Positions 13,364-34,545 of a stretch of DNA of 44,418 bases are shown piece after piece; within the stretch, counting starts at the first letter, position 1; every line of letters starts with the position of its first letter. Source of the DNA: a phage. Below the pieces are notes generated by a model. The model had not been told where the DNA came from, searched no databases, and worked only from the letters and a program-made list of their open reading frames with translations. The stretch lies in the sequence record PX502252.1. One strand, 5' to 3'. A program made the translations under genes and the position numbers.

Positions 13364-13365
13364 TT

Positions 13366-14154: not shown

Positions 14155-14163
14155 GGAGATAAC

Positions 14164-14373: not shown

Positions 14374-14377
14374 TATA

Positions 14378-15925: not shown

Positions 15926-16824
15926 TGTCTTTTGAAATTATTAATGAACCTGTAAGTCAGTCTGACGTTACTGAATCTAAGGAGGCTGCTGATGTTAATA
16001 CTACCGACAACGATTCTACTGTTGATTCTTCTGGCAGCGATGTACAAGCTGACACAAGCAGTACAGATGTACAAGACACCAGAGGAGAAGATGCTGGAGA
16101 AGATGGAGCGGGAGCAGAGGCTGGTGGACAGGATGATAAATCTGAGCCAAATGACACCACAGATGCGCGGTTCTTCTTCGGTGAACAAGAAGTAGAGATT
16201 GAGATTCCTGATGACGTGTCAACTGCCTTGAAAGAGAAAGGTATTGATGCTATGCAGGTTGCCAAGGAGTTGTATGGCGAAGGTGGTAAATTTGAACTCA
16301 AGGAAGAGACAAAGCAGAAGTTGTATGATGCTTTTGGTAAGTTTGCTGTAGACGCCTACCTGAATGGCCTTAAGGCCTCCAACGAAGCATTCATGCTCAA
16401 AGCTGAGACTCAAGCAAAAGAGGCGGAGGCTGCTGATGCTCAGCGCTTCACTGATATTGCATCTGAGGTTGGAGGGGAAGAAGGTTGGTCACGCCTTGAA
16501 GAGTGGGCGCTTGAAACCCTCTCGGATGAGGAGCTAACCGCGTTTAATGCTGTTATGGCCTCTGGCAACCAGTACCTGCAACAATATGCTGTTCGTGAAC
16601 TGGAAGGTCGCCGTAAGCAAGCGCAAGGGGACGATAAGCCGTCTCTGATTGAGCCATCAGCACCTGCTAAGGCTAATGAGGATAACGGGCCATTAACTCG
16701 CGATCAGTATGTACATGCCATTGCAACTCTGAGCCAGAAGTATGGTAATGACCGTAAGGCTATGGCAGAAGCTCAGGCTAAACTGGATGCCCGTCGCCGT
16801 GCTGGCATGGCTCGCGGTATCTAA
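15925..16824 (+). CDS. Capsid assembly (scaffolding) protein, T7 gp9-like
   Basis: Highly acidic, D/E/A-rich 299 aa protein between portal and major capsid. Confidence 0.85.
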   Translation: MSFEIINEPVSQSDVTESKEAADVNTTDNDSTVDSSGSDVQADTSSTDVQDTRGEDAGEDGAGAEAGGQDDKSEPNDTTDARFFFGEQEVEIEIPDDVSTALKEKGIDAMQVAKELYGEGGKFELKEETKQKLYDAFGKFAVDAYLNGLKASNEAFMLKAETQAKEAEAADAQRFTDIASEVGGEEGWSRLEEWALETLSDEELTAFNAVMASGNQYLQQYAVRELEGRRKQAQGDDKPSLIEPSAPAKANEDNGPLTRDQYVHAIATLSQKYGNDRKAMAEAQAKLDARRRAGMARGI

Positions 16825-16830
16825 TTCAGT

Positions 16831-16853
16831 ATTTACTGGACACTATAGAAGGG
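16831..16853 (+). promoter_or_regulatory. SP6-type phage promoter (ATTTACTGGACACTATAGAAGGG) upstream of major capsid gene
   Basis: Full consensus match. Confidence 0.8.
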
Positions 16854-16903
16854 AGAAAAGTTCTCCCTAGTTATCAATTTGATTTATAAGGAGATTATAA
16901 CAC

Positions 16904-18112
16904 ATGTCTACACCGAATACTCTGACTAACGTTGCTGTATCTGCGTCCGGTGAGGTTGACAGCCTTCTCATTGAGAAGTTTAATGGTAAAGTCAATGAGC
17001 AGTACCTGAAAGGTGAGAACATTCTGTCTTACTTTGATGTACAAACTGTTACTGGCACTAACACAGTGAGCAACAAATATTTGGGCGAGACTGAGTTGCA
17101 GGTGCTGGCACCGGGTCAGTCTCCTAATGCCACCCCTACTCAGGCGGATAAAAACCAGTTGGTAATTGATACCACTGTCATTGCTCGTAACACTGTGGCT
17201 CACATCCACGATGTACAAGGTGACATCGACAGCCTGAAACCTAAACTGGCTATGAACCAAGCCAAGCAACTGAAACGTCTGGAAGACCAGATGGCAATTC
17301 AGCAGATGCTGTTAGGCGGCATTGCTAACACCAAAGCAAAACGTGACAAGCCTCGCGTAAAAGGTCATGGCTTCTCTATCAACGTTAACGTAACTGAAAG
17401 TGAAGCACTGGCTAACCCGCAGTATGTCATGGCTGCGGTAGAATATGCTCTGGAGCAACAGCTTGAGCAGGAAGTGGACATCTCTGATGTAGCTATCATG
17501 ATGCCATGGAAGTTCTTCAATGCTCTGCGTGATGCGGATCGTATTGTAGATAAGACTTACACTATTAGCCAATCTGGTGCAACCATTAACGGTTTCGTTC
17601 TGTCTTCTTACAACTGCCCTGTGATCCCATCTAACCGATTCCCTACCTTTACTCAGGGTCAGGCTCACCACCTGTTGTCTAATGAAGATAATGGCTATCG
17701 TTATGACCCCATCGCAGAGATGAATGGTGCAGTTGCTGTGCTGTTTACTGCCGACGCACTGCTTGTAGGTCGGACTATTGAAGTGACTGGTGACATCTTC
17801 TATGAGAAGAAAGAGAAGACTTACTATATCGATACCTTCATGGCTGAAGGTGCAATCCCTGATCGCTGGGAGGCTGTGTCTGTAGTTACCACTAAACGCA
17901 ACGGAACCTCTGGTGCTGCTCAGGGTGCAGGCGACGACCACGACACTGTACTGGCTCGTGCACAGCGTAAGGCTGTATATGTCAAGACCGCAGGCGCTGC
18001 GGCTGCATTCTCTGCTGCACCCGTAGGTATCCAAGCAGAAGACCTAGTAGCGGCGGTACGTGCTGTAATGGTAAATGACATCAAGCCTACTGCACTGAAA
18101 CCTACTGAGTAA
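16904..18112 (+). CDS. Major capsid protein, T7 gp10-like
   Basis: 402 aa; dedicated promoter and terminator; position after scaffold. Confidence 0.92.
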   Translation: MSTPNTLTNVAVSASGEVDSLLIEKFNGKVNEQYLKGENILSYFDVQTVTGTNTVSNKYLGETELQVLAPGQSPNATPTQADKNQLVIDTTVIARNTVAHIHDVQGDIDSLKPKLAMNQAKQLKRLEDQMAIQQMLLGGIANTKAKRDKPRVKGHGFSINVNVTESEALANPQYVMAAVEYALEQQLEQEVDISDVAIMMPWKFFNALRDADRIVDKTYTISQSGATINGFVLSSYNCPVIPSNRFPTFTQGQAHHLLSNEDNGYRYDPIAEMNGAVAVLFTADALLVGRTIEVTGDIFYEKKEKTYYIDTFMAEGAIPDRWEAVSVVTTKRNGTSGAAQGAGDDHDTVLARAQRKAVYVKTAGAAAAFSAAPVGIQAEDLVAAVRAVMVNDIKPTALKPTE

Positions 18113-18120
18113 TAACCTAT

Positions 18121-18156
18121 GCCCTATCTACCTTGCGTAGGTAGGGTTCTTTTGTT
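18121..18156 (+). terminator. Stem-loop plus T-run terminator after capsid gene (GCCCTATCTACC...GGTAGGGTTCTTTTG)
   Basis: Same architecture as 9030-9061. Confidence 0.7.
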
Positions 18157-18167
18157 TAGGAGGATTC

Positions 18168-18908
18168 ATGCCTTTAATTCAAAATACAAGTGATGTTGGG
18201 CGTATCATGGCTGAGGCTTCCTTCAATATCATTGATAGTAAGCTGGAGGCAGTCAACCTGTGTATGCGAGCTATTGGTCGTGAGGGTGTGGATTCCCTTG
18301 ACTCTGGCGACTTAGATGCTGAAGATGCTAACAAGATTATTGATATTGTCTCACAACGCTTCCAATACAACAAGGGTGGTGGTTGGTGGTTTAACAGAGA
18401 ACCTAATTGGCTACTTAAACCTGACACAAATGGTGAAGTGAACATGCCTAACAATTGTCTTGCTGTTCTCCAATGTTATGCTCTAGGTGAACGTAAAGTA
18501 CCTATGACTATACGCGCAGGCAAGTTGTACTCTGTTTGGAATCACACTTTCGATATGTCAAAGTATGTGAATCAGGATGGGCGTATTAGGTTGACTCTGG
18601 TAACATTACTGCCTTTCGAGCATCTACCTGCAAGTGTAATGCAGGCCATTGCCTATCAGGCTGCCGTAGAGTTTATTGTGTCTAAAGATGCAGATAAGAC
18701 TAAACTACAAGCACACCAGCAGATTGCAGCACAATTGATGATTGATGTTCAGTCAGAGCAGTCTTCTCAGAAGAGACTTAATATGCTTGTACATAACCCC
18801 ACTCAGCGCAACTTTGGCATCATGGCAGGTGGATCTCAGAATGTACCAGCGTTCTCCTATTCACCTTATGACACTTACCCTGTAAGGCCGTGGGAGGTTG
18901 ATAGATAA
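18168..18908 (+). CDS. Tail tubular protein A, T7 gp11-like
   Basis: 246 aa; synteny after capsid. Confidence 0.85.
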   Translation: MPLIQNTSDVGRIMAEASFNIIDSKLEAVNLCMRAIGREGVDSLDSGDLDAEDANKIIDIVSQRFQYNKGGGWWFNREPNWLLKPDTNGEVNMPNNCLAVLQCYALGERKVPMTIRAGKLYSVWNHTFDMSKYVNQDGRIRLTLVTLLPFEHLPASVMQAIAYQAAVEFIVSKDADKTKLQAHQQIAAQLMIDVQSEQSSQKRLNMLVHNPTQRNFGIMAGGSQNVPAFSYSPYDTYPVRPWEVDR

Positions 18909-21313
18909 TGGAAGTACAAGGTTCTTTAGGTCGTCAGATTCAAGGTATTAGCCAACAACCAGCAGCAGTACGGTTAGACGGTCAATGTACTGATATGGTT
19001 AATATGGTTCCAGATGTAGTCAACGGTACACAATCCCGCATGGGTAGCACTCATATTGCAAAGCTAATGGAAGCAGGCAGTGACAATATGGCAACACATC
19101 ACTATAGAAGAGGGGATGGGGTAGAAGAGTATTTCTTTGTCATGAAGAAAGGTAGCGTGCCAGAAATATTTGACAAAGAAGGGCGTAAATGCACTGTGAT
19201 CTCTCAGGATGCACCTATGGCTTATCTTGCTGAGGTTGTGAACCCGAGAGAAGACGTGCAGTTCATGACTATTGCTGATGTAACATTTATGCTTAACAGG
19301 CGTAAAGTAGTGAAAGCTCGTAGTGATAAGTCTCCAAGTGTGGGAAACAAGGCTATTGTGTTTTCTGCCTACGGGCAGTATGGCACTTCGTACACTATCT
19401 CTATTAACGGCGAGCAAGCGGCGACCTTCAAAACTCCAGATGGAAGTGACCCTAGTCATGTAGAACAGATTCGCACTGAGTACCTAGCCACTAAGCTATA
19501 TGAGAGTTTACAGACATGGAGTAAAGCGTCACAGTACACCTTGCAAAGAGAAGGCACTAGTATCTACATTGAAACTAAAGATGGTAGTGATTTCACTATT
19601 ACTACCACAGATGGGGCCAAGGGTAAGGACTTGGTTGCCATAAAGAACCGAGTGTCATCTACAGACTTACTTCCCTCAAGAGCACCAGAAGGGTACAAGG
19701 TACAGGTGTGGCCTACAGGGAGTAAACCAGAATCTAGGTATTGGCTAGAGGCTGTACCTAAAGAAGGAGGTAACTTAGTTGCTTGGCAAGAAACTATTGC
19801 AGCAGATGTGTTACTTGGATTTGATAAAGATACTATGCCCTATATTATAGAGCGTACAGGTATTGTAGGAGGTGTGGCGCAGTTTAAGATAAGGCACGGT
19901 GATTGGGAAGATCGTAAGGTAGGAGATGACCTGACTAACCCTATGCCTTCTTTTATTGATGAAGATGTACCACAGGCGATTGGCGGTATGTTCATGGTGC
20001 AGAACCGTCTTTGTGTTACAGCAGGCGAAGCCGTCATAGCAACTAGGACTTCTCACTTCTTTGACTTCTTTCGTTTCTCCGCAGTATCTGCTGTGGCAAC
20101 AGACCCTTTCGATATTTTCTCAGATGCAAGTGAGGTATACCAGCTTAAACATGCAGTAACCCTAGATGGGGCAACAGTATTATTCGCAGATACATCTCAG
20201 TTCATACTTCCGGGGGATAAAGTATTAGAGAAATCTAATGTCATACTCAAGCCTGCTACAACTTTCGAAGTTGACAACAGGGTGCCACCTGTGGCAACTG
20301 GTGAGTCCGTGATGTTTGCTACAAGTGAGGGTGCTTACTCTGGTGTGCGTGAGTTTTATACCGATTCTTACAGCGACACTAAGAAGGCGCAGGCTGTTAC
20401 TAGTCATGTTAACAAGTTGATAGAAGGTAATATCACTCATATGGTAGCGAGCACTAATATCAACAGATTACTTGTAGTAACAGACAAAGACCCTAATATT
20501 GTCTATTGCTACGACTGGTTGTGGCAAGGGACAGATCGTGTACAGTCTGCATGGCATAAGTGGGTGTGGCCTAAAGATACTTTGATTCGCTCTATGGTCT
20601 ATTCCTCAGAGATGTTATATCTCATTGTAGAACGAGGTAATACTGGTTTGTATCTAGAGGTTATGGATATGGGTGATGCTCTTACTTATGGTTTAGTTGA
20701 CAGAATTAGACTGGATAGGCAAGCAGAGTTGATCTTCACCTATGATGCTAATACAGACCAGTGGGTTTCTAATGAGTTGCCTTGGAAGCCTACTGACCCA
20801 GCCTTACTTGAGTGTGTGATAATTCAAGGGTGGCCTGCTTATATTGGTGGTTCTTTTCATTTTGAATATGATGAAGCCAGTAATAAGCTAATTACAACTT
20901 TTGATTTATCAGAAGAAGGCACTAATGCTATAGCTGTCGTAGGGCAGTTGTATCAGCAGGAGTTTGAGCCAACACAGGTCGTTATTCGAGATAACCAAGA
21001 TAGAGTGTCCTACATAGATGTGCCAGTGGTAGGCCTGGTTCACCTTAACTTGGATAAATACCCTGACTTTGAAGTTCATATCAAGAACTTAAAGAGTGGC
21101 AAATTAAGAAAGGCTTTGGCATCTAACAGGAAAGGCGGGGCACTTAATAATGTTGTTGGTTATGTCAAGCCAGAAGAGGGGTCATTCAAATTTCCACTAA
21201 GATCCCTTAGTACAGATACTGTTTATCGTATCATTGTTAACTCCCCTCATACATTCCAACTCAGGGATATTGAGTGGGAAGGTTCGTATAACCCAACTAA
21301 GAGGAGGGTATAA
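18908..21313 (+). CDS. Tail tubular protein B, T7 gp12-like
   Basis: 801 aa; synteny. Confidence 0.88.
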   Translation: MEVQGSLGRQIQGISQQPAAVRLDGQCTDMVNMVPDVVNGTQSRMGSTHIAKLMEAGSDNMATHHYRRGDGVEEYFFVMKKGSVPEIFDKEGRKCTVISQDAPMAYLAEVVNPREDVQFMTIADVTFMLNRRKVVKARSDKSPSVGNKAIVFSAYGQYGTSYTISINGEQAATFKTPDGSDPSHVEQIRTEYLATKLYESLQTWSKASQYTLQREGTSIYIETKDGSDFTITTTDGAKGKDLVAIKNRVSSTDLLPSRAPEGYKVQVWPTGSKPESRYWLEAVPKEGGNLVAWQETIAADVLLGFDKDTMPYIIERTGIVGGVAQFKIRHGDWEDRKVGDDLTNPMPSFIDEDVPQAIGGMFMVQNRLCVTAGEAVIATRTSHFFDFFRFSAVSAVATDPFDIFSDASEVYQLKHAVTLDGATVLFADTSQFILPGDKVLEKSNVILKPATTFEVDNRVPPVATGESVMFATSEGAYSGVREFYTDSYSDTKKAQAVTSHVNKLIEGNITHMVASTNINRLLVVTDKDPNIVYCYDWLWQGTDRVQSAWHKWVWPKDTLIRSMVYSSEMLYLIVERGNTGLYLEVMDMGDALTYGLVDRIRLDRQAELIFTYDANTDQWVSNELPWKPTDPALLECVIIQGWPAYIGGSFHFEYDEASNKLITTFDLSEEGTNAIAVVGQLYQQEFEPTQVVIRDNQDRVSYIDVPVVGLVHLNLDKYPDFEVHIKNLKSGKLRKALASNRKGGALNNVVGYVKPEEGSFKFPLRSLSTDTVYRIIVNSPHTFQLRDIEWEGSYNPTKRRV

Positions 21314-22038
21314 TGGCAGTAATGGCAACAGTAGGATCAAGCCTAGCCAGTATGTTCTCCAGTAGTGCAGGTGCTGCGGCTGCTAGTAGTGCTGCTGGTA
21401 GTGCCGCCGCTGGGAGTGGGGGTGTGCTTGGCTCTGTCGGAAGTTTCTTAGGTGGAAGCTCTGCTGGCTTTTCTAATGCAGGTTTGTTGTCTGCTGGACT
21501 ACAAGGCTTAAACTTACTAGGCGGCCTATTCGGTGGACGAGATACCGCTAAGGCTATGCAGAAAGCACAAGAAGAAGAGTGGAGACAAAGGCTAGAAGCC
21601 ACACGTGAAGCCTATTCTTCTGTGGCAAATGCAGAACGGTCTGCTGCAAAGCAATATCATTCTGACTTCCTTAATAATCAAATTTCACTGATGCAGCAAC
21701 GAGCGCAAGTTGCAGTAATGGCAGGTGCTACTGGAACAGGTGGTAGCTCCATCACATCCATGCTCAATGATTTGACGGCAGAAGGTGGTCGTAATCAGTC
21801 AACCATTATAGATAATTATGAGAATCAGCAAATCAACTTTGCCAACCAGTTGAAGTCTATTCAACGCAGTGGACAGATGCAGATGCGAACGTTTGACAAA
21901 CCTTCCGCTTTGGGTACTTTGGTGAAAGGTATACCAAGCCTTGCATCTTCCTATGTCACCGGAAGTAAAGCAGGTATGGCGCTTGGCAAGGCTATCACTG
22001 AGTCTCGTACTTATTCATCAGGAACTAGAGGAGTTTAA
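21313..22038 (+). CDS. Internal virion protein (Gly/Ala/Ser-rich N-terminus)
   Basis: 241 aa; low-complexity AAAASSAAGSAAAGSGG region; position of T7 gp13/14. Confidence 0.75.
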   Translation: MAVMATVGSSLASMFSSSAGAAAASSAAGSAAAGSGGVLGSVGSFLGGSSAGFSNAGLLSAGLQGLNLLGGLFGGRDTAKAMQKAQEEEWRQRLEATREAYSSVANAERSAAKQYHSDFLNNQISLMQQRAQVAVMAGATGTGGSSITSMLNDLTAEGGRNQSTIIDNYENQQINFANQLKSIQRSGQMQMRTFDKPSALGTLVKGIPSLASSYVTGSKAGMALGKAITESRTYSSGTRGV

Positions 22039-24981
22039 ATGGCAATTGAACGTCAAGCTGTACAAGGTTTAGAAAGAGTACAGTCAAGGGGCGCGCCAAC
22101 ACCTATGTCTTTCACACCACGACAAGTGAGTATCTCAGGGGGCGCTGATGCCTCCGGTAGTAGATTTTTGGAAGACTTAGTAAACGCCGCAAGTAGTGTG
22201 GCTGATGTCACTACTGCTATCCTTAATCAGCAAGTAGAAGACGATAAGGTTCGCCAGATGGATAGGGCTTTGTCTGGCATGATGCCTTCTGAGGATGCCA
22301 CGGTAGGCGGTGCTCGTGCTCATATGCTGGTTAGTTTACAAAATGATGTAATCGCACAGACAACTGCGCTACAAGCAGAAGCACAGCGATTTCAAGGTAG
22401 TGACGAGGATTGGGAAAACTATGTAGTTCAATCTCGTAATGAGGTACAAAATAGATTATGGCAAAGTTATCCAGAGCTTCGTGGTGACAAAGATTCTATG
22501 AGGCTTGTCACTAACGCGTTCATGGAGCAGCAACCTAGAATTACTGCAACTAGAGCAGAGGCTAAACTTCGTCAAGAAGAAGAAGCACGAATGCAATCTA
22601 TGCAGTCTCGTATTATCATGGCTACAAGGGACGTAGCGCCAGATGCCACTGGTGCAGCTCTTATCCAGCTACAAAAAGAAGCACTGGCGATGGGTCTTAG
22701 TAAACCTGAGTTTGATCAAATGGTTGCTAAGATTGCATCTGAAAGAGCGGCAGTAGGAGATGATAGTCTTATTCAGGGAACCAAGGCATTGGTGGATGAT
22801 AAGGGTGTCTCTTTGTATGACCGTGTTGGTGCTTTGCAAACTGGAGAAATTCAAGCTAACAGAACTTGGGCTGCTCAGAATCAGGTTGCCCTCTTCGAGA
22901 AGAAAGATGCAGCTATAAAGGCATTCGATGCAGGGCAACTTACTCGCGAAGAGTTACTTCAGGTAATGCAGAATCACAATGAATTGACTGGTGGCACTGC
23001 TTGGTCTGATAGCGAGATCAAGGCTATCTTCGATAGGCAAGCTAAGGTTAATGCAGAGAAAGCAAAGCTCGAAGATCTTATTGCACGAGGTGAATCTGGG
23101 TCGCCTTTAGGCTTACAGGACATTAGTAAGGATGACAGAAAGACATATGCTGAAGCCTTAGTTAGTACCTACACTAAGCTGGCAGAAGATGAAATTGCTC
23201 GTACTGGTGCAACGGGAGAACAGGCTGAAGCTATTCGCGGTAGGTATGAGCAGATGCGTTATCTTAAATTGGGTCAACAGCTTATTGAAGACCCGATCAT
23301 TAAGGAAAGGTATTCGTCGCTTATGCAGCTATCCTCTGCCAACCTCAAGGATATGAATGTTGAACCTGAAGCACTGCAAACTATCATGCGAGCACGTGAT
23401 TCTATTCCAGAGGATGCACGTCGTGCTGTTATGGGAGACAAAGAATATGCCTTTGTTGAGAACTATGACTTAGCAACTCGCATGGGATATAACACAGGTC
23501 AAGCTATTGAGTTTGCACAGAATGCCTCTCGCGGCGAGAAATTACAAGGTTCTGTGCTCAAAGAACTTAATGATGATGTAGATGGAGTAGTTAGTGACAT
23601 TGCAGGAGGTAGCTGGCTCACTTTTGGTGATAACATGAGTGAAATGGGACGTGACATTATGATGGAGGAGGCAAGTACAATTGCTAGAGCAATGAAGGTT
23701 GCAGGCCATAATAATGACACTATTAAGCGTCACCTTAAATCCTATCTTACAAGCCAGTATACACAATTGTCAGAAGGTTTCTTTACTCAAGGTGTTCTTG
23801 TAAAAGGAGACATTCGTACATTAGGGGACACTATAGGAGTAAACCAAGGAGACGTCCCAATGGCTCTCCGTCAGTACCTAGATAATAACAAACAAGCTCT
23901 ACTAGATGCATCAGGTGGGTTAGAGGAAGGCGACCTGTATTTTGATGTAGATGCGCAGCGTGGCCTCTTTACTATACGTGCAGGCTCTGGTCGTGTGCCT
24001 GTTACACAGGCAATGCCTTTGTCTGAAATCAAAGGTCAATCCTTGCTTAAGCAACGGTATGATGCAGAGGTTAAAGCACGTGATGAAGGGCGTAAGAATT
24101 TTGAAGCACAACAAATGCGAATGTGGGGTGCAGGTGGATATCAAGCACAGCCACCTGCAAAGACTACAGCCAAAACTGTAGGCTCACGTGGTATTGCTGA
24201 CTTCTTAATGTCTCCCGCCTTTGCATCAGGTGAAAGATTGCCAGCAAACTTTGAGTTTGGCTATAAGAGGAATAATATGGACTTTTATAACTATGTGGCT
24301 AAGACTGAGAATAGCGCCAATGTAGGGTTCGACCGAGTAGCGGGAGTTTATACACCATACAAAGATGCACATGGTCAGTCTGTAGGTTATGGTCACTTCC
24401 TTACTGCTGAAGAGAAGAAGAACGGATACATTATGATTGGTACAGAGAAAGTGCCATTCACTCCGGGGCAATCTCAATTAACACCAGAACGTGCCATGCG
24501 CCTCCTACAGCAAGACTTGAAGAGCCATGTGCCAAGCACTTCAGGGTGGGCTGTTCCCTTCGAAGAGATGCACCCAGGTGTTCAGCGTGGCCTTATGGAT
24601 TTGTCCTATAACTTAGGTAAAGGAGGCATCCAGAATGCTCCTAAGGCATATGCTGCGTTTAAGGCTGGCAAGTTTACTGATGGCTTTATCGAGATGTTAT
24701 CTACTGCATCTACTGAAGGTAAACGTAGCACTGGGTTGTTGGTTCGTAGGGCAGAAGCATATAATCTTGCCCAGAGCGGAGGTGCTGTTCCTAAGATTAG
24801 TGAAGTAGAGACACGAGCAGATGGGTCCATGTATGTGAAGTTTGCAGGTCAGATGTCAGAGGCTTTCGTAAGTAAATCAATCTATAATCAGATTGGTAAG
24901 GATGGGTGGATGCAAGTGTACCCTCCAAAACAAGGTGCGCTTGCACCTAACACTCAGGTTGGTAGAATCAAACTAAGCTAG
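22039..24981 (+). CDS. Internal virion protein with C-terminal T4-lysozyme-like (GH24) muramidase domain
   Basis: 980 aa; segment E...YTPYKDAHGQSVGYGHFLT matches the E/D/T catalytic region pattern of T4 lysozyme (YKDTEGYYTIGIGHLLT). Confidence 0.8.
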   Translation: MAIERQAVQGLERVQSRGAPTPMSFTPRQVSISGGADASGSRFLEDLVNAASSVADVTTAILNQQVEDDKVRQMDRALSGMMPSEDATVGGARAHMLVSLQNDVIAQTTALQAEAQRFQGSDEDWENYVVQSRNEVQNRLWQSYPELRGDKDSMRLVTNAFMEQQPRITATRAEAKLRQEEEARMQSMQSRIIMATRDVAPDATGAALIQLQKEALAMGLSKPEFDQMVAKIASERAAVGDDSLIQGTKALVDDKGVSLYDRVGALQTGEIQANRTWAAQNQVALFEKKDAAIKAFDAGQLTREELLQVMQNHNELTGGTAWSDSEIKAIFDRQAKVNAEKAKLEDLIARGESGSPLGLQDISKDDRKTYAEALVSTYTKLAEDEIARTGATGEQAEAIRGRYEQMRYLKLGQQLIEDPIIKERYSSLMQLSSANLKDMNVEPEALQTIMRARDSIPEDARRAVMGDKEYAFVENYDLATRMGYNTGQAIEFAQNASRGEKLQGSVLKELNDDVDGVVSDIAGGSWLTFGDNMSEMGRDIMMEEASTIARAMKVAGHNNDTIKRHLKSYLTSQYTQLSEGFFTQGVLVKGDIRTLGDTIGVNQGDVPMALRQYLDNNKQALLDASGGLEEGDLYFDVDAQRGLFTIRAGSGRVPVTQAMPLSEIKGQSLLKQRYDAEVKARDEGRKNFEAQQMRMWGAGGYQAQPPAKTTAKTVGSRGIADFLMSPAFASGERLPANFEFGYKRNNMDFYNYVAKTENSANVGFDRVAGVYTPYKDAHGQSVGYGHFLTAEEKKNGYIMIGTEKVPFTPGQSQLTPERAMRLLQQDLKSHVPSTSGWAVPFEEMHPGVQRGLMDLSYNLGKGGIQNAPKAYAAFKAGKFTDGFIEMLSTASTEGKRSTGLLVRRAEAYNLAQSGGAVPKISEVETRADGSMYVKFAGQMSEAFVSKSIYNQIGKDGWMQVYPPKQGALAPNTQVGRIKLS

Positions 24982-24998
24982 TGTTATACTCAAGGTTT

Positions 24999-25014
24999 GT
25001 CTCACATGTGAGAC
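24999..25014. promoter_or_regulatory. 16-bp perfect palindrome GTCTCACATGTGAGAC (site 6), between internal virion protein genes
   Basis: Exact copy, flanked by T/A extending palindrome to 18 bp. Confidence 0.7.
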
Positions 25015-25048
25015 ATGCCTTTATGAATGACACTAACTAGGAGGTAAC

Positions 25049-28000
25049 ATGGTTGATAGTATTAACCAAAACTGGGTGGCGGTGACTCAACGCAAGTTAC
25101 CGCCTACCTTCTCTCAAGTTGCTGAAGCCGAACGTAGGGTAGAAGACCAGAGAGCTAAGGATAAAGTATTTCAAACAGCAATAGAAAGTGAGTGGGCTTT
25201 GTACGGTGGACAACGTGCCTATGAACGCCACACTACAGAGTTTACTGAACAAGAAGGTTATGAAGTACCTGAATCAACTAAGGATGAACTATCCAAGTTG
25301 TATGGGTATGAAATAGCGCAAGACATAGTTAAGAATGTGAAGTCTCCAGAAGAGTTGCAATTCCGTATGTCTAATGCTGCTGCTGATAAAGACAGAGCAG
25401 ACATCTTAGCACGTAATGGTTTCACAGGTTTTAGCGCACAGATTGCTGCTGGCATTCTTGACCCTGTAGGTTGGGCGGCTTCTCTAGTAGCTGCACCTGT
25501 AGCTGGTGCTGTCAAAGTAGGTCGTCTAGGTAGGATTATCAAGACGGCTGCCTTATCTGGTGCTGAAAATGCTGCATTAGAAGCTGTGCTTGCACAAGGT
25601 GATTACCAACGAGGTGTCGATGATGTACTGGCTGCTGCCGGGTTTGGTATGATTATGGGCGGTACTATTGGCGCTGCAACTAGGGAACGCATAGCCAGTG
25701 CTGGTTCTCGTACAGCGGCAGAGAGAGCAGAGGTTGTATTTGATGACTTGGACACCGTAGTAAAAGGTGCTGATGAGTTTGACTCGTCTGCTGCTCGTGC
25801 TGTACGTGAGGCCATGGAGTATGACGCGTATATGGCAGCACGTAATTATGAACCACTTCGTGCAAGAGAGGTGGATGCAGATATGGCAATTCTATCTCAC
25901 ACAGACAACTTGAAAGCCAATGCGTCGGTAAGGATGAGTGCTAGTGAGAAAGGACTACTGAAGAAACAGATACGCCAACTGGAAGCAGAAGCAGCCACAC
26001 TTAAGGGGAAGAAGATAGATGCTGTAGCAGAGGCTGCCGCCGCTAAGGGTGCACCTAAATCTGCTGCGGACAGATTGGATTTAGATGTTCAGAAGAAAGC
26101 ACTGGCACGTAGATTCGATGAACCACTTGCTGATTTACAAGCGCGTCTAGATGAGTTGAATGCCAAGTTATCTCGTGCGAACAATGTAGGTAAGGCTAAG
26201 GAGGAGCTTAAGAGATTCTCATCGCTGTCCCGTGAAGATCAAATAAAGGAACTAGGTTTAGACGCACCAATGCGTAAGGTGGAGATGACCCGTGCTGTAC
26301 GCGATGCAGTAGCTGCAATCCGTGCCGAACGTAAGAAGACACCTACCGAAATACATGCTGGACAAGTTGCAGAAGAGGCAATCAAACAAAAGGCAGATGA
26401 CTCTATTGGTGCTAAACGTGTTGAAGGTTCAGAGATTGCAGGCGAGCAGTTTGACTTATCTAAAAACATGGAAGAGCTTATGGACGACTTGGCACGAGAA
26501 GCATATCAGTCAGATGTGCGGCCTATTAATCTTAAGGGTCTAGGTTCGGTGTCTTCTGTGATTCTTAACTCAGAGAACCCTGTGTTCCGAGGTCTAGGCC
26601 TTCGTCTGCTTGAAAATGCTCAGGGTGGTGCATATCAAGGTAAGACAGCTTCTATCTTATCAGATGTGTATGGCAACCTTATTCGTCATGCAGAACGTAA
26701 CAGGTACAATGATGGTTTCTCTCAATTCATCAAAGATAACAACCTGCGTGCAGTAGATTATCTTAATCCTGCAACGACACGGGATTTCAATAATCAGATT
26801 TATACAGCAATTGTTCGTGGCATACCAGAAGATACACCTCGTGGTGTTAAACTGGCAGCCGAAGGTATTGCTGATAAACTCAAGAAAGCACTTGAGATTC
26901 GTAAGCAAGCAGGAGAGCATGGATTCGAGGATGTACAATCTGCTAAGGATTACATCCCTGTTATCTATGACGGTATCAAAATCACAGAGGCAGTTAACAA
27001 GCTAGGTAGCAGTGAAGCTGTCATACACTTGCTGTCTAAAGGTTATCAGACAGGCAAGTACAAGCTTGGCAAGAAAGCTGCTGATGCACTAGCCAAAGTC
27101 CAGTATATTCGCGCATCTGACTCTACCCTCTCTAGTCGTGTTGCATTCGATAGAGTGGTATCCCAGCAGCAGCAGGTTCAGTTGATTGAGGATCTGAAGA
27201 AAGCAGGAGTACCAGATCGTATCATTGATAATTTCATTGAAGGTACGGAATTAGCAGAAATGGCTGAATCGGTATCCAATCGAGCTAAAGCCAGTATGGG
27301 TATTAATACGCAAGCCGAATACGGTGGTTTGAAGGTGCAGGATTTGCTTAATACCAACGTAGGTGAGCTAACTGAGAACTACGGCAAAGAGGCAGCGGGT
27401 GGTGCTGCATTAGCTGCTATGGGTTTCCCTACTCGCCAATCTGTGCTGAACGCAATAGATGCCGCAGAACGCGCAGGCCGCAATATGGCGGGGTCAAATG
27501 CTAAGGCAATCAAACAGCTTAGGTCTGAGGCAGAAATGCTAAGAGATGCCGTTAAGCTTATTTACGGCAACACTATAGACGCCGACCCTAACTCTGGAAT
27601 TGTCAGGGGCACTAGACGTGTCCGCGAGATTACAGGCTTGTTACGATTAGGCCAAATGGGCTTCGCTCAGATACCCGAACTGGCACGTGCAATCTCTAAG
27701 ATGGGGCTAGGGACTGTGCTGAAGTCTGTACCTGCCACTAAGTTCTTACGTTCGAGAGCGGCTCGTAAAGGTGGCACGGCTCAGGGTGAGCTGCTTGAAC
27801 CTGAACTGCGGGAAATGGAGGAACTCTTAGGCTATATCGGGGAAGATAACTGGCTTACAGGGTGGAACGTCCGTCATGATGAGTTCGGAGAAACTGCTGA
27901 TAACCTAGGTAAGCTGTCCGCTATTATTGATAATGGCTTGGCTATGGGTAGTAGAATCAACACAATTCTCTCTGGTTTTAAAGCAGTACAAGGTGGTTCA

Positions 28001-28852
28001 GAGAAAATTGTAGCTCGCTCTATCAATAAGAGACTAAAGCAACATTTGATGGGTGAGCGACAGCTACCCAAAGCAGACCTTGAAGAAGTTGGCCTAAGTG
28101 AAGATGTCATGAAGAGACTTAAACGTCACTTTGATGATAACCCAATGTACGCTGATTACAACGGTGAAAAAGTTCGTATGATGAACTTTGATGCTATGGA
28201 GCCAGATCTGAGAGAAACAGTAGGTGTTGCTGTGCGAAGAATGTCAGGCCGTCTTATTCAACGTAACTTCATTGGTGATGAAGGTATCTGGATGAACAAA
28301 TGGTGGGGTAAAGCATTAACTCAGTTTAAGTCATTCTCTATCGTCTCTATTGAGAAACAGTTAATCCATGATTTACGAGGTGATAAGATTCAGGCTGCAC
28401 AGATACTTGCATGGTCTACTTTACTAGGTTATGCATCTTATTCACTACAGATGCAGCTGCAAGCGATTGGTAGGGAAGATAGAGACAAGTTCTTGAGGGA
28501 TAAGTTTGACACACAGAACATCGCTATGGGTGTCTTTAATAAACTCCCACAAGTTGCAGGCTTCGGTCTTGCTGGTGATGCTTTGGCAACCTTTGGCCTA
28601 ATGCCAGACTCCATGATGCAAGCACCGGGACGTATGGGCTTCCGTCAGCAAGGATTTGGTGATTTGGTAGCAGGTGCTGGTGTAATCAGTGATACAGTTA
28701 ATTTGTCACAAGCACTGGTTAAGTATGCCAGTGGGGATGATGATGTCTCTACTAGGCAGTTGGTGGACAAGGTGCGTCGCCTTGTTCCTTTGGCAAATAC
28801 TATTGGTGTAGGTCAGATGACTAAAGCCAGTGTAGACTTATTGGAGGATTGA
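25049..28852 (+). CDS. Internal virion (core/ejection) protein, T7 gp16-like
   Basis: 1267 aa; size and position. Confidence 0.85.
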   Translation: MVDSINQNWVAVTQRKLPPTFSQVAEAERRVEDQRAKDKVFQTAIESEWALYGGQRAYERHTTEFTEQEGYEVPESTKDELSKLYGYEIAQDIVKNVKSPEELQFRMSNAAADKDRADILARNGFTGFSAQIAAGILDPVGWAASLVAAPVAGAVKVGRLGRIIKTAALSGAENAALEAVLAQGDYQRGVDDVLAAAGFGMIMGGTIGAATRERIASAGSRTAAERAEVVFDDLDTVVKGADEFDSSAARAVREAMEYDAYMAARNYEPLRAREVDADMAILSHTDNLKANASVRMSASEKGLLKKQIRQLEAEAATLKGKKIDAVAEAAAAKGAPKSAADRLDLDVQKKALARRFDEPLADLQARLDELNAKLSRANNVGKAKEELKRFSSLSREDQIKELGLDAPMRKVEMTRAVRDAVAAIRAERKKTPTEIHAGQVAEEAIKQKADDSIGAKRVEGSEIAGEQFDLSKNMEELMDDLAREAYQSDVRPINLKGLGSVSSVILNSENPVFRGLGLRLLENAQGGAYQGKTASILSDVYGNLIRHAERNRYNDGFSQFIKDNNLRAVDYLNPATTRDFNNQIYTAIVRGIPEDTPRGVKLAAEGIADKLKKALEIRKQAGEHGFEDVQSAKDYIPVIYDGIKITEAVNKLGSSEAVIHLLSKGYQTGKYKLGKKAADALAKVQYIRASDSTLSSRVAFDRVVSQQQQVQLIEDLKKAGVPDRIIDNFIEGTELAEMAESVSNRAKASMGINTQAEYGGLKVQDLLNTNVGELTENYGKEAAGGAALAAMGFPTRQSVLNAIDAAERAGRNMAGSNAKAIKQLRSEAEMLRDAVKLIYGNTIDADPNSGIVRGTRRVREITGLLRLGQMGFAQIPELARAISKMGLGTVLKSVPATKFLRSRAARKGGTAQGELLEPELREMEELLGYIGEDNWLTGWNVRHDEFGETADNLGKLSAIIDNGLAMGSRINTILSGFKAVQGGSEKIVARSINKRLKQHLMGERQLPKADLEEVGLSEDVMKRLKRHFDDNPMYADYNGEKVRMMNFDAMEPDLRETVGVAVRRMSGRLIQRNFIGDEGIWMNKWWGKALTQFKSFSIVSIEKQLIHDLRGDKIQAAQILAWSTLLGYASYSLQMQLQAIGREDRDKFLRDKFDTQNIAMGVFNKLPQVAGFGLAGDALATFGLMPDSMMQAPGRMGFRQQGFGDLVAGAGVISDTVNLSQALVKYASGDDDVSTRQLVDKVRRLVPLANTIGVGQMTKASVDLLED

Positions 28853-29811
28853 TGAGTTACACATTCACTGAACATACAGCGAATGGCACTCAAACTACTT
28901 TCCCCTTCCGGTTCGCTGGGAGGGACAAGGGGTACTTGAGGGCTTCTGATATTTTAGTTGAAGTAAGAAATGATGGTGTATGGAACACGGTAAGCGGTTG
29001 GACACTTACAGGCACTAACCAGATAACCTTTAATGTACCACCAGCGGCAAATACAAAACTTCGCATCAGGCGCGTTGTAGAGAAAGAAGAGCCTTATGCA
29101 GAGTTTGACCGTGGTGTGACCTTAGATATGAAATCTCTCAATAACTCCTTTATACACCTTTTGGAAGTATCTCAGGAGCTACTGGATGGTTTCTATCCAG
29201 ATGGTTACTTTGTAAAGCAAGATACATCTTGGGGTGGACATAAGATTACTGATTTGGCTGATGGCACAAATCCGGGAGATGCAGTAAATAAAGGACAGCT
29301 TGATGCCATCGACAAGAAGCATACAGATTGGAACGCCAAACAGGACATTGAGATTGCTGGCCTTAAAGCAGGTATGACTTCTGGTATTGCGCACAGAACT
29401 GTCCCTTGGTATACGATCGCACAAGGAGGTGAGATTTCCGTAAAGCCTCCTTATGAATTTCAAGATGCACTAGTTTTCCTTAATGGGGTATTACAACACC
29501 AAATCGTAGGCGCATACTCTATAAGCAACAACACTATTACTTTCGCAGAGCCACTTGTGGCTGGCACAGAGGTGTACGTGTTGGTGGGGAGTCGTGTGGC
29601 TACATCTGAACCTAATATTCAGTTAGAGCTGAACTTTGACTTAGTAGAAGGTCAACAAGTAGTAAAGATTGGCTCTGCATTTAAGTATATTGAGGTTTAT
29701 CTTGATGGACTATTACAACCTAAACTTGCTTATCAGGTAGATGGTGACATTGTTACTTTCTCAGAGGGAGTACCAGAATGTCGGATGACTGCTAAGATTA
29801 TCACAGCATAA
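28852..29811 (+). CDS. Tail fibre adaptor protein (T7 gp17 N-terminal domain-like)
   Basis: N-terminus FTEHTANGTQTTFPFRF...TKLRIRR resembles tail-attachment domain of T7 gp17; 320 aa. Confidence 0.7.
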   Translation: MSYTFTEHTANGTQTTFPFRFAGRDKGYLRASDILVEVRNDGVWNTVSGWTLTGTNQITFNVPPAANTKLRIRRVVEKEEPYAEFDRGVTLDMKSLNNSFIHLLEVSQELLDGFYPDGYFVKQDTSWGGHKITDLADGTNPGDAVNKGQLDAIDKKHTDWNAKQDIEIAGLKAGMTSGIAHRTVPWYTIAQGGEISVKPPYEFQDALVFLNGVLQHQIVGAYSISNNTITFAEPLVAGTEVYVLVGSRVATSEPNIQLELNFDLVEGQQVVKIGSAFKYIEVYLDGLLQPKLAYQVDGDIVTFSEGVPECRMTAKIITA

Positions 29812-29820
29812 GGAGGTGGG

Positions 29821-30015
29821 ATGATAAACTCCGAACTGGTAGACAATGGTGTGAAGCTAGCGCCACCTGCATTAGTCTCAGGTGGGTACTTCCTCGGTAT
29901 CAGTTGGGACAATTGGGTACTGATAGCAACATTCATTTATACAGTGTTGCAGATTGGCGATTGGTTCTATACTAAATATACAATATGGAGGAAGAAGCGT
30001 GAGCGTGCACAATAA
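29821..30015 (+). CDS. Holin-like small membrane protein (64 aa)
   Basis: AGGAGG SD; hydrophobic segment WVLIATFIYTVLQIG and basic C-terminus RKKRERAQ; position equals T7 gene 17.5. Confidence 0.6.
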   Translation: MINSELVDNGVKLAPPALVSGGYFLGISWDNWVLIATFIYTVLQIGDWFYTKYTIWRKKRERAQ

Positions 30016-30298
30016 ACATGCAGCCACAGAGGATGAAGTAGGCATCCTGCATGGCGCTATTACGAAGATGTTTAATAAGAAAGCAAAGGCTATACTGGAC
30101 ACTATAGAAGCAGACCCTGATTCTGCTATGCACCTAGTGTCAGGTAAAGATATTGGAGCCATGTGTAAATGGGTTTTAGATAATGGCATTACTGCCACCC
30201 CTGCTGCACAGCAGGAGGAGTCCAAGTTATCTAAGCGCCTCAAGGCTATCCGAGAGGCGTCCAGTGGCAAGATCATTCAGTTCACTAAGGAGGATTGA
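29999..30298 (+). CDS. Terminase small subunit (start uncertain)
   Basis: Immediately upstream of large terminase with stop/start overlap; GTG 29999 has GGAGGA 6 nt upstream; ORF track extends to 29954. Confidence 0.55.
   Translation: MSVHNKHAATEDEVGILHGAITKMFNKKAKAILDTIEADPDSAMHLVSGKDIGAMCKWVLDNGITATPAAQQEESKLSKRLKAIREASSGKIIQFTKED
30091..30113 (+). promoter_or_regulatory. SP6-type phage promoter embedded in small terminase gene (TATACTGGACACTATAGAAGCAG)
   Basis: Core ACTGGACACTATAGAAG exact; in-frame encodes ILDTIEA. Confidence 0.55.
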
Positions 30299-32193: not shown

Positions 32194-32194
32194 T

Positions 32195-32217
32195 ATTTAC
32201 TGGACACTATAGGAGGA
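32195..32217 (+). promoter_or_regulatory. SP6-type phage promoter (ATTTACTGGACACTATAGGAGGA)
   Basis: Consensus match directly after terminase stop. Confidence 0.75.
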
Positions 32218-32345
32218 AGACCAAGAGAATAAAGGAGTATTATAGGATAATATAGGATTACCTAGGTTATATAGGTATGCCTTAGTATGGGTGTACTCCT
32301 GTACACCTATTCCTACTTACTATTTACTTATACATATAAGGAGTG
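32218..32345. other. AT-rich promoter-proximal element sharing TATAGGATTACCTAGG with region 139-280; candidate secondary origin
   Basis: 16-bp identical core and similar AT-rich TAGG-containing flanks. Confidence 0.4.
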
Positions 32346-32349
32346 TTAG

Positions 32350-32631
32350 ATGGCTAATGATTATAGTAATCAGCCTTTAACTGGTCGTTATGACCGTAAA
32401 CAGATTACACCAACTAGTGAAGCATTAATGCTCCCTGTTGTTACAGAGGAGTCTATTAAGAAGAAAGCCAATGTTATCAATGATGCAACCAAATCTGGTA
32501 AACAGAAAGCAGCAATGGTATGTCGTCCTGTAGGTGGCACTCTTGAGATTGCCATTGCTACTGGTAGCAAAGAGGATGCAGACTGGTTGTCTGTTAAAAT
32601 GGATGGCGTTGGCCTTATTACACCAGCTTAA
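32350..32631 (+). CDS. Paralog-family small protein 1 (93 aa)
   Basis: AAGGAG SD; shares IN...SGKQKAAMV...IAIATGS...W core with next two ORFs. Confidence 0.7.
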   Translation: MANDYSNQPLTGRYDRKQITPTSEALMLPVVTEESIKKKANVINDATKSGKQKAAMVCRPVGGTLEIAIATGSKEDADWLSVKMDGVGLITPA

Positions 32632-32648
32632 TAAAAGGAGAAGATAAT

Positions 32649-32936: not shown

Positions 32937-32937
32937 T

Positions 32938-34516: not shown

Positions 34517-34545
34517 TACATAGCTTTATGTATCAGTGTCTTACG

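What the first reader, a model, noticed from the sequence alone, without database searches (positions are those of the whole stretch)
24300..24660. T4-lysozyme-like muramidase domain inside the 980-aa internal virion protein
In T7 the peptidoglycan-cleaving domain is a lytic transglycosylase at the N-terminus of gp16. Here a GH24-type motif (YTPYKDAHGQSVGYGHFLT) lies in the C-terminal part of the gp15-position protein, indicating a different enzyme class and placement for cell-wall penetration during ejection.
Basis: partly seen in the sequence, partly recalled or inferred. Interest (0 to 1): 0.5.

Follow-up and report, generated by a model that had tools for sequence, protein, structure and literature searches.

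The report
Known lysozyme domain on phage ejection protein
The 980-residue internal virion protein of this SP6/K1-5-like phage does end in a T4/P22-type lysozyme domain that most likely cuts the cell wall during DNA ejection, but this arrangement is already published and annotated for the phage group, so the finding is correct and ordinary.

Summary

The interpretation also holds:
- The N-terminal 720 residues model as a T7 gp15-like tunnel protein.
- The gene lies between a gp14-family gene and a gp16-like gene.
- The gp16-like protein has no SLT domain.
- The phage has its own holin and M15 peptidase endolysin.

None of this is new. The window is an SP6/K1-5-like phage, and this gene is 96.7% identical in nucleotides to the phage LL11 gene annotated "lysozyme domain-containing protein". 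A review table credits Moak and Molineux (2004), whose paper reported virion-associated peptidoglycan hydrolase activities, for listing SP6 gp36 and its K1-5 counterpart as virion-associated lysozymes. phiKMV gp36 has been characterised biochemically. A 2026 preprint counts this "lysozyme at the C-terminus of the tunnel protein" layout in 31 of 127 Autographivirales genomes.

Minor open points are a 10-residue insert after the putative catalytic Glu757 and a conserved 65-residue C-terminal beta module.

The parts
22039..24981 (+). 980-aa internal virion (ejection) protein. It is the orthologue of SP6 gp36, LL11 gp41 and K1E gp35.
   Evidence: ORF list and translation. phrog_4290 'lysozyme domain-containing protein' matches end to end, E = 0, 1463.6 bits. 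The gene is 96.7% identical in nucleotides to the LL11 gene and 75% to SP6 gene 36.
22039..24138 (+). gp15-like, mostly alpha-helical body (aa 1 to about 700). It is the presumed periplasmic tunnel part.
   Evidence: AlphaFold2 model of aa 1-720: pLDDT 78.1; aa 1-63 and 75-87 are disordered. The only significant Foldseek PDB matches are T7 entries 7k5c_A, 9jyy_G and 7eyb_A (E 1.3e-8 to 5.2e-5, probability 1.00, about 670-740 aligned columns, low TM 0.23-0.31). hhalign aligns aa 290-642 with phiKMV gp36 aa 302-673 (E 8e-5). There is no sequence-level match to T7 gp15.
24262..24774 (+). GH24 (T4/P22-type) lysozyme domain, aa 742-912. The Pfam match covers aa 771-906 (nt 24349..24756).
24307..24309 (+). 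Codon GAG for Glu757, the putative catalytic acid.
   Evidence: Invariant in 47 of 47 homologues that go down to 36% identity. In the model it is the last residue of the helix aa 742-757, just before the beta hairpin, which is where Glu11 sits in T4 lysozyme. The equivalence is inferred. No sequence alignment reached this residue.
24364..24381 (+). Asp776 (GAT, 24364..24366) to Ser781 (TCT, 24379..24381). These are the counterparts of T4 lysozyme Asp20 and Thr26.
   Evidence: Profile and hhalign alignments place 'YKDahG-sVGyGH' on T4 lysozyme 'YKDTEGYYTIGIGH'. Asp776 is present in 38 of 47 homologues; the rest carry an insertion with an Asp close by. Position 781 is Ser, Thr or Asn.
24781..24978 (+). 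Conserved C-terminal beta-rich module, aa 915-980, of unknown role.
   Evidence: Four strands at high pLDDT. Invariant D928 G929 F935 G956 W957 G975. No Pfam hit. phiKMV gp36 ends shortly after its lysozyme fold and has no counterpart.
21313..22038 (+). gp14-like internal virion protein (context).
   Evidence: PF24072 T7_gp14, E 1.7e-26; phrog_805.
25049..28852 (+). gp16-like internal virion protein that lacks the N-terminal lytic transglycosylase domain (context).
   Evidence: The phrog_342 alignment starts at profile position 208. BLASTP aligns aa 77-233 here with T7 gp16 aa 274-423. No SLT or any other muralytic Pfam domain, whole or in pieces, while T7 gp16 gives SLT at 108.6 bits.
29821..30015 (+). 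Holin (context: a separate lysis system).
   Evidence: PF10746 Phage_holin_2_2, E 3.2e-28.
33600..33971 (+). Endolysin of the lysis cassette, an M15 peptidase (context: the GH24 domain is not the lysis enzyme).
   Evidence: PF08291 Peptidase_M15_3, 113.7 bits. The orthologues SP6 gp46 and LL11 gp49 are annotated as endolysin.

Best explanation
The 980-aa protein is the ejected periplasmic tunnel protein of an SP6/K1-5-like podovirus. It corresponds to T7 gp15 and carries a GH24 lysozyme domain fused to its C-terminal part.

Proposed mechanism: the protein is packaged in the internal core of the capsid together with the gp14-like and gp16-like proteins. At infection it is expelled through the tail. 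While it assembles into the trans-periplasmic conduit, its lysozyme domains cleave the MurNAc-GlcNAc bonds of the murein locally. That lets the conduit and the gp16-like protein reach the inner membrane. This is the job the N-terminal SLT domain of gp16 does in T7.

Shown here: the GH24 sequence match and fold, conservation of the candidate catalytic residues, the gp15-like fold of the body, synteny, the absence of SLT from the gp16-like protein, and the presence of a separate lysis cassette.

Taken from the literature: a review lists the SP6 and K1-5 orthologues as virion-associated lysozymes, citing Moak and Molineux 2004, and a cryo-EM study shows the equivalent domain in a phiKMV-like virion core.

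Inferred: that this particular protein is active, that it is a hydrolase rather than a lytic transglycosylase, and when and where it acts during ejection.
For: GH24 domain:
- PF00959 above the curated threshold.
- PDB profile hits to T4 lysozyme; hhalign E 1.3e-6.
- AlphaFold2 pLDDT 90.4.

Candidate catalytic residues:
- Glu757 is invariant in 47/47 homologues.
- Asp776 and Ser781 align with T4 lysozyme Asp20 and Thr26.

Ejection protein context:
- gp14-family gene upstream and gp16-like gene downstream.
- The N-terminal model matches T7 ejectosome tunnel and virion core chains specifically.
- The body is homologous to phiKMV gp36, whose own C-terminus also carries PF00959 and aligns with this domain.

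No alternative wall-cutting domain:
- The gp16-like protein lacks SLT.

Not the lysis enzyme:
- Holin and M15 endolysin lie elsewhere in the window.

Literature:
- K1E and K1-5 gp15-like homologues 'contain lysozyme activity' (PMC8954989).
- The Ar-KM cryo-EM preprint reports a lysozyme domain at gp42 residues 740-881 and a survey of configurations (bioRxiv 10.64898/2026.05.18.726046).
- gp14-like + gp15-like + gp16-like total 241 + 980 + 1267 = 2488 aa, inside the 2378 +/- 162 aa reported there.
Against: - No activity data exist for this exact protein.
- The Glu-to-Asp spacing is unusual. The pattern here is E-18-D-4-S. From my own knowledge, T4-type lysozymes have E-8-D/C-5-T, and phiKMV gp36 reads E-8-D-4-S.
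- No alignment reached Glu757, so its catalytic role is inferred from conservation and its position in the model.
- Asp776 is replaced in 9 of 47 homologues in the raw alignment. Re-alignment shows an inserted loop with a nearby Asp.
- TM-scores to the T7 chains are low (0.23-0.31), and there is no sequence-level similarity to T7 gp15. The gp15 relationship therefore rests on local fold similarity plus synteny.
- The GH24 fold also includes lytic transglycosylases such as lambda R (my own knowledge), so 'muramidase' is not proven.
Confidence: 0.9

Rival explanations
1. The GH24 domain is the phage's soluble endolysin, used for host lysis at the end of infection, as the original GenBank name of the LL11 orthologue suggests ('putative soluble endolysin').
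For: The LL11 GenBank record MH729818 carries that name, and the RefSeq note says 'putative endolysin'. The weaker PHROG matches are endolysin families. The closest solved folds are endolysins.
Against: - The domain makes up only about 170 of 980 residues in a protein whose body matches the T7 ejectosome and core chains.
- The gene sits in the structural operon between the gp14-like and gp16-like genes.
- The window has its own holin and M15 peptidase endolysin, plus spanin-like ORFs as annotated in LL11 and SP6.
- The SP6 orthologue is described as an internal head protein.
Confidence: 0.03
2. The domain keeps the lysozyme fold but is catalytically dead. It would serve only as a structural or peptidoglycan-binding module of the conduit.
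For: The Glu-to-Asp spacing is unusual because of a 10-residue insert. Ser replaces the Thr of T4 lysozyme. Asp776 is not strictly conserved. No assay has been done on this protein.
Against: - Glu757, Asn758, Gly783, Gly785, His786 and Thr789 are invariant across homologues down to 36% identity.
- phiKMV gp36 has the same D-4-S arrangement and is reported as an active lysozyme.
- A review lists the SP6 and K1-5 orthologues as virion-associated lysozymes, citing Moak and Molineux 2004. SP6 is 91% identical over this domain.
Confidence: 0.04
3. The domain is active but works as a lytic transglycosylase that produces 1,6-anhydro-MurNAc, as lambda R does within GH24. In that case the chemistry would be the same as T7 gp16 and only the fold would differ.
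For: GH24 contains both hydrolases and the lambda transglycosylase (my own knowledge). Fold and profile matches cannot tell the two chemistries apart. The altered Glu-to-Asp geometry could affect the water-activating residue.
Against: The counterparts of T4 lysozyme Asp20 and Thr26, which are associated with hydrolysis, are present. The best structural matches are hydrolytic lysozymes and muramidases (P22, DLP12, 8b2s, SpmX). The literature calls the orthologues lysozymes, although that table does not show product analysis.
Confidence: 0.1
4. The protein is a T4 gp5-like baseplate hub or tail lysin, as several database records name it.
For: Names given to orthologues include 'baseplate hub subunit / lysozyme', 'baseplate hub' and 'tail lysin'. 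T4 gp5 also carries a GH24 domain.
Confidence: 0.01

Closest known systems
SP6 gp36, K1E gp35 and the K1-5 orthologue (listed as gp35 or gp38); phrog_4290 'lysozyme domain-containing protein'; LL11 gp41
   Same: These are direct orthologues. The profile matches end to end (E = 0). Nucleotide identity is 96.7% to LL11 and 75% to SP6. The lysozyme domain is 91% identical in amino acids to SP6. Gene order is the same. A review lists them as virion-associated lysozymes of about 107-109 kDa.
   Different: Nothing of substance. The lysozyme domain here is closer to SP6 (91%) than to the K1-type Vectrevirus phages (about 64%).
phiKMV gp36 and Ar-KM gp42 (Krylovirinae): gp15-like tunnel protein with a C-terminal lysozyme domain
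   Same: The architecture is the same: a helical body plus a C-terminal PF00959 domain. The 'YKDAxGxSVGxGH' block is shared and aligned. The gp16-like partner has no SLT. phiKMV gp36 is reported as an active, thermostable lysozyme, and the domain is seen by cryo-EM in the virion core.
   Different: The relationship is distant (hhalign E 8e-5 for the body, 3.7e-6 for the domain). phiKMV has the canonical 8-residue Glu-to-Asp spacing, and this protein has 18. phiKMV lacks the 65-aa C-terminal beta module.
T7 gp16 N-terminal SLT (GH23) lytic transglycosylase domain
   Same: The presumed role is the same: a wall-cutting activity carried by an ejected internal core protein.
T7 gp15 (periplasmic tunnel protein; PDB 7k5c, 7eyb, 9jyy)
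   Same: It occupies the same position in the operon. The N-terminal 720 aa match it specifically by fold.
   Different: There is no detectable sequence similarity, and TM-scores are low. T7 gp15 (747 aa) has no lysozyme domain (no Pfam family).
GH24 endolysins and muramidases: P22 gp19, DLP12 RrrD, phage 21 R21, T4 lysozyme, fungal muramidase 8b2s
   Different: Those are free-standing lysis enzymes of about 150-250 aa. This domain is embedded in a 980-aa virion protein, has a 10-residue insert after the catalytic Glu, and shares only 14-24% identity.

Membership tests
GH24 / Pfam PF00959 Phage_lysozyme | Sequence match to the family profile above the curated gathering score | tested here: met
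   The excised aa 716-980 scored 34.9 bits against a cut-off of 22.3, E 2.2e-8, covering aa 771-906 and profile positions 8-124 of 125. The full-length scan gave no hit; phiKMV gp36 behaves the same way.
GH24 / Pfam PF00959 Phage_lysozyme | T4/P22 lysozyme fold: an N-terminal helix, a beta hairpin lobe and a helical C-lobe | tested here: met
GH24 / Pfam PF00959 Phage_lysozyme | Catalytic glutamate at the end of the first helix (T4 lysozyme Glu11) | tested here: inconclusive
   Glu757 is invariant in 47/47 homologues and ends the helix aa 742-757 in the model. No sequence alignment extends to it, and no residue-level superposition was available.
GH24 / Pfam PF00959 Phage_lysozyme | Counterparts of T4 lysozyme Asp20 and Thr26 in the beta hairpin | tested here: met
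   Asp776 and Ser781 align with Asp20 and Thr26. Position 781 is Ser, Thr or Asn across homologues. Asp776 is present in 38/47, and the rest have a loop insertion with an Asp nearby.
T4-type 'true lysozyme' catalytic signature (E-8 aa-D/C-5 aa-T; recalled from the endolysin literature) | Canonical spacing of the three catalytic residues | tested here: not met
   The pattern here is E757-18 aa-D776-4 aa-S781. phiKMV gp36, reported as an active lysozyme, reads E-8-D-4-S. The D-4-S part is therefore compatible with activity. The 10-residue insert after the Glu is specific to the SP6-like group.
GH24 / Pfam PF00959 Phage_lysozyme | Muramidase activity on peptidoglycan | not testable with these tools
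   Only indirect evidence is available: a review lists the SP6 and K1-5 orthologues as virion-associated lysozymes, citing Moak and Molineux 2004.
SP6 gp36-type internal virion protein (phrog_4290) | End-to-end homology and conserved gene order (gp14-like, this protein, gp16-like, adaptor/tail fibre) | tested here: met
   phrog_4290 covers aa 1-979 against profile positions 1-969 of 969. 46 full-length homologues at 36-97% identity. The gene order is identical in LL11 and SP6.
T7 gp15-like periplasmic tunnel protein | Gene between the gp14-like and gp16-like internal core genes | tested here: met
   PF24072 T7_gp14 upstream and phrog_342 downstream.
T7 gp15-like periplasmic tunnel protein | Structural similarity to T7 gp15 | tested here: met
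   Foldseek hits 7k5c_A E 1.3e-8, 9jyy_G 2.9e-8 and 7eyb_A 5.2e-5, with the next hit at 0.43. TM is only 0.23-0.31 and the model pLDDT is 78. That these chains are gp15 is my reading of their length (about 650 aa) and entry titles.
T7 gp15-like periplasmic tunnel protein | Detectable sequence homology to T7 gp15 | tested here: not met
   hhalign of the 47-sequence profile against T7 gp15 gave probability 0.2% and E 0.32. The full-length profile against the PDB hits only lysozymes.
T7 gp15-like periplasmic tunnel protein | Packaged in the virion core and ejected to form the conduit | not testable with these tools
   A review describes SP6 gp36 as an internal head protein, and cryo-EM shows the equivalent protein in the phiKMV-like phage Ar-KM.
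GH23 / SLT lytic transglycosylase on gp16 (the T7 arrangement) | SLT domain at the N-terminus of the gp16-like protein | tested here: not met
   No SLT in 25049..28852, whether scanned whole, as the first 300 aa, or in five overlapping pieces. T7 gp16 as control gives PF01464 at 108.6 bits. Homology to T7 gp16 begins about 200 residues into T7 gp16.
T4 gp5-type baseplate hub lysozyme | OB-fold N-terminal domain and C-terminal beta-helix flanking the lysozyme domain | tested here: not met
   The N-terminal 720 aa are predicted to be almost entirely helical and match only T7 ejectosome and core chains. After the lysozyme fold there is only a 65-aa module.

The most novel reading that the evidence does not exclude
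The SP6-like version of the virion lysozyme may be more than a simple copy of the phiKMV or T4 enzyme. It has two group-specific, strongly conserved additions:
- a 10-residue insert between the catalytic Glu757 and the Asp/Ser hairpin;
- a 65-residue C-terminal beta module (aa 915-980) that phiKMV gp36 lacks.

These could form a regulatory or docking device. For example, they might keep the enzyme silent inside the capsid, or anchor it to murein or to the gp16-like protein after ejection. That has not been described.
Probability: 0.12. Interest if true: 0.3.

Novelty: already known. Interest (0 to 1): 0.1.

Why it matters
The finding illustrates an accepted point. Podoviruses of the T7 supergroup all need a wall-cutting activity on their ejected core proteins, but they have placed different enzymes (GH23 SLT or GH24 lysozyme) on different carriers (gp16 or gp15-like) at equivalent heights in the assembled conduit. 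For this window it adds nothing new.

Its practical value is for annotation:
- This gene should be named [quoted passage not shown].
- The neighbouring gp16-like gene should not inherit "endolysin domain" or "lytic exotransglycosylase" from T7 gp16.
- Full-length Pfam scans miss the domain.

Tried and rejected
- Whole-protein Pfam scan: no family at E 0.01. This was a false negative, resolved by scanning the excised domain.
- phmmer of the whole protein against the PDB: only a weak GH24 muramidase hit, E 0.52.
- Word-indexed homologue search with the excised domain: only 3 hits. The full-length query was needed to get 46.
- hhalign against T7 gp15: nothing. The relationship appeared only at the fold level.
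- Pfam on the last 70 aa: nothing. Neither fold search gave a match that could be assigned to that module, because lysozyme hits dominate.
- Dobbins et al. 2004 (the SP6 genome paper) is not in the held library. What it and Moak and Molineux 2004 reported is cited second hand from PMC4837284 and PMC5380687.
- Endolysin, baseplate hub and dead-enzyme readings were considered and rejected (see the rival explanations).
- I did not use the large representative-protein search, because the family was already well sampled.
Full report
WHAT IS THERE

The window is essentially a whole genome of an SP6/K1-5-like podovirus (Autographiviridae, Molineuxvirinae). The nearest records are Escherichia phage LL11 and Citrobacter phage CrRp3, with 90-93% nucleotide identity over the first 22 kb. 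The gene in question is 96.7% identical to LL11 and 75% to SP6.

The ORF at 22039..24981 (+) encodes 980 aa. It is the only G[YIL]GH match in all six frames of the window. The reported interval 24300..24660 corresponds to aa 754-874.

IS IT A GH24 LYSOZYME DOMAIN?

Yes. Four lines of evidence agree.

- Pfam. A scan of the whole protein returned nothing. The excised C-terminal 265 aa hit PF00959 Phage_lysozyme at 34.9 bits against a curated cut-off of 22.3 (E 2.2e-8, aa 771-906). phiKMV gp36, the characterised virion lysozyme, behaves the same way: no hit for the full length, 29 bits for the last 198 aa.
- Profile searches. A 25-sequence profile of the domain hits T4 lysozyme chains in the PDB (E 8e-5 and weaker). 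hhalign against T4 lysozyme gives E 1.3e-6.
- Structure prediction. An AlphaFold2 model of aa 716-980 is confident (pLDDT 90.4, pTM 0.85).

From the model, the fold spans about aa 742-912 (nt 24262..24774).

CATALYTIC RESIDUES

I aligned 46 full-length homologues at 36-97% identity. Glu757, Asn758, Gly763, Gly783, Gly785, His786 and Thr789 are invariant.

The profile alignments place Asp776 and Ser781 on T4 lysozyme Asp20 and Thr26. Position 781 is Ser, Thr or Asn. Asp776 is present in 38 of 47 homologues, and the remainder carry a loop insertion with an Asp close by.

Glu757 ends the helix aa 742-757 just before the beta hairpin, which is the position of Glu11 in T4 lysozyme. No sequence alignment reached it, and I could not superpose coordinates. 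Its catalytic role is therefore inferred from conservation and its position in the model.

The spacing is E-18-D-4-S. phiKMV gp36 reads E-8-D-4-S, and T4-type lysozymes are E-8-D/C-5-T (my own knowledge). The SP6-like group thus has a 10-residue insert after the Glu.

WHAT CARRIES THE DOMAIN

- The upstream gene 21313..22038 is a T7 gp14-family protein (PF24072, E 1.7e-26).
- The downstream gene 25049..28852 is gp16-like (phrog_342).
- Portal, capsid, tube and nozzle genes precede them.

The N-terminal 720 aa have no sequence similarity to T7 gp15. Their AlphaFold2 model is almost all helical (pLDDT 78, disordered at aa 1-63 and 75-87). It matches three T7 entries and nothing else significantly: the ejectosome periplasmic tunnel 7k5c_A (E 1.3e-8) and the virion core entries 9jyy_G (2.9e-8) and 7eyb_A (5.2e-5). 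The next hit is at E 0.43. TM-scores are low (0.23-0.31), which fits a long, hinged helical protein. Reading these chains as gp15 is my inference from their length and entry titles.

The body also aligns with phiKMV gp36 (aa 290-642 against 302-673, hhalign E 8e-5). "gp15-position protein" is therefore justified by synteny and by fold, not by sequence.

DOES THE GP16-LIKE PROTEIN STILL HAVE A TRANSGLYCOSYLASE?

No.

- T7 gp16, used as a positive control, gives SLT PF01464 at 108.6 bits.
- The 1267-aa protein here gives no muralytic family when scanned whole, as its first 300 aa, or as five overlapping pieces. I scanned the pieces because the whole-protein scan had already produced one false negative.
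- Its PHROG alignment starts at profile position 208. BLASTP aligns its aa 77-233 with T7 gp16 aa 274-423. The roughly 200-residue SLT-plus-tape segment of T7 gp16 is simply absent.

NOT THE LYSIS ENZYME

The window has a T7-family holin (29821..30015, PF10746) and an M15 peptidase endolysin (33600..33971, PF08291 at 113.7 bits). Spanin genes are annotated in the same region of LL11 and SP6.

MECHANISM (BEST EXPLANATION, CONFIDENCE ABOUT 0.9)

The protein is packaged in the internal core and ejected at infection. It forms the periplasmic conduit, and its C-terminal GH24 domains cut the glycan strands locally so that the conduit and the gp16-like protein can reach the inner membrane.

- Shown here: the sequence match, fold, conservation, synteny and absence of SLT.
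- From the literature: the listing of orthologues as virion-associated lysozymes and the location of the domain in the virion core.
- Inferred: activity of this exact protein, hydrolase as opposed to transglycosylase chemistry, and timing.

COMPARISON WITH WHAT IS KNOWN

The arrangement is already described.

- RefSeq names the LL11 and SP6 orthologues "lysozyme domain-containing protein".
- A 2016 genome paper notes that the C-terminus of SP6 gp36 resembles cell-wall lysozymes, citing Dobbins 2004 and Scholl 2004 (PMC4837284).
- A 2017 review tabulates SP6 gp36 (107 kDa) and K1-5 gp38 (109 kDa) as virion-associated lysozymes, citing Moak and Molineux 2004. [quoted passage not shown] It lists phiKMV gp36 as a characterised thermostable C-terminal lysozyme (PMC5380687).
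- A 2022 review states that the gp15-like homologues of K1E and K1-5 contain the lysozyme activity that T7 carries on gp16 (PMC8954989).
- A 2026 preprint on the phiKMV-like phage Ar-KM shows the domain (gp42 residues 740-881) by cryo-EM in the virion core. It surveys 205 Autographivirales genomes. Of 127 with an identifiable domain, 86 have it at the N-terminus of the gp16-like protein, 31 at the C-terminus of the tunnel protein, and 10 centrally in the tunnel protein (bioRxiv 10.64898/2026.05.18.726046).
- The three ejection proteins here total 2488 aa, within the 2378 +/- 162 aa reported in that preprint.
- tblastn finds the domain in 163 phage records, almost all SP6/K1-like phages of enterobacteria.

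VERDICT

The finding is already known, and interest is low (0.1).

The only loose ends are small: the group-specific 10-residue insert after Glu757, and the conserved 65-aa C-terminal beta module (aa 915-980). That module has no Pfam match and no counterpart in phiKMV gp36.

RIVAL READINGS

- Soluble endolysin: contradicted by the evidence above.
- Baseplate hub: contradicted by the evidence above.
- Catalytically dead fold: contradicted by the evidence above.
- Lytic transglycosylase chemistry within the GH24 fold: cannot be excluded computationally, but the presence of the Asp20 and Thr26 counterparts makes it less likely.

Noticed in passing
window 24781..24978 (aa 915-980 of the 980-aa protein): A conserved beta-rich module of about 65 residues follows the lysozyme fold. 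It has four strands at pLDDT above 90 and invariant D928 G929 F935 G956 W957 G975. It has no Pfam match, and phiKMV gp36 has no counterpart. Its role is unknown; docking or murein binding are guesses.
   Followed up: partly
window 24307..24366 (aa 757-776): A 10-residue insert lies between the invariant Glu757 and the Asp776/Ser781 hairpin. The spacing is E-18-D-4-S, against E-8-D-4-S in phiKMV gp36. It contains the invariant Asn758 and Gly763.
   Followed up: partly
window 22039..24981 and locus L004 1867..4563 (phiKMV gp36): Full-length hmmscan against Pfam misses the PF00959 domain in both proteins, while the excised domains pass the curated threshold. This probably explains the inconsistent public names for the orthologues: hypothetical protein, baseplate hub, tail lysin, putative soluble endolysin.
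   Followed up: yes
window 25049..28852: Public records call the gp16-like protein 'internal virion protein with endolysin domain' or 'peptidoglycan lytic exotransglycosylase'. No SLT or other muralytic domain is detectable, whole or in pieces. The name appears to have been transferred from T7 gp16.
   Followed up: yes
window 32350..33240: There are three tandem paralogous modules of about 95 aa: ORFs 32350..32631 and 32649..32936, and the N-terminus of 32938..33627. They share 28-39% identity and the motif INxxxLSGKQ(K/E)G...IAxATGS...D.W. LL11 and SP6 records call two of them 'acetyl-CoA acetyltransferase', which looks doubtful. The 229-aa ORF has no Pfam hit.
   Followed up: partly
window 1..44418 (RNA polymerase 41723..44350; primase/helicase 482..2470): At 44.4 kb the window is about one genome length (LL11 is 45.2 kb). 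It appears circularly permuted relative to reference records, with the early-region RNA polymerase at its 3' end.
   Followed up: no
window 34536..37605: The two tailspike-like ORFs are 392 aa (no Pfam hit) and 552 aa (weak pectate-lyase-like match, 23 bits, below the cut-off). They lie in the part of the window least covered by the nearest phages: only 57-76% of 25000..44418 aligns. This suggests a receptor-binding module swapped relative to LL11, which has a K5 lyase.
   Followed up: no
window 24262..24774 compared with other phages: The lysozyme domain is 91% identical in amino acids to SP6 (genus Zindervirus) but only about 64% identical to the K1-type Vectrevirus phages, although the nearest whole genomes are classified as Vectrevirus. 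This hints at mosaic exchange of this gene.
   Followed up: no
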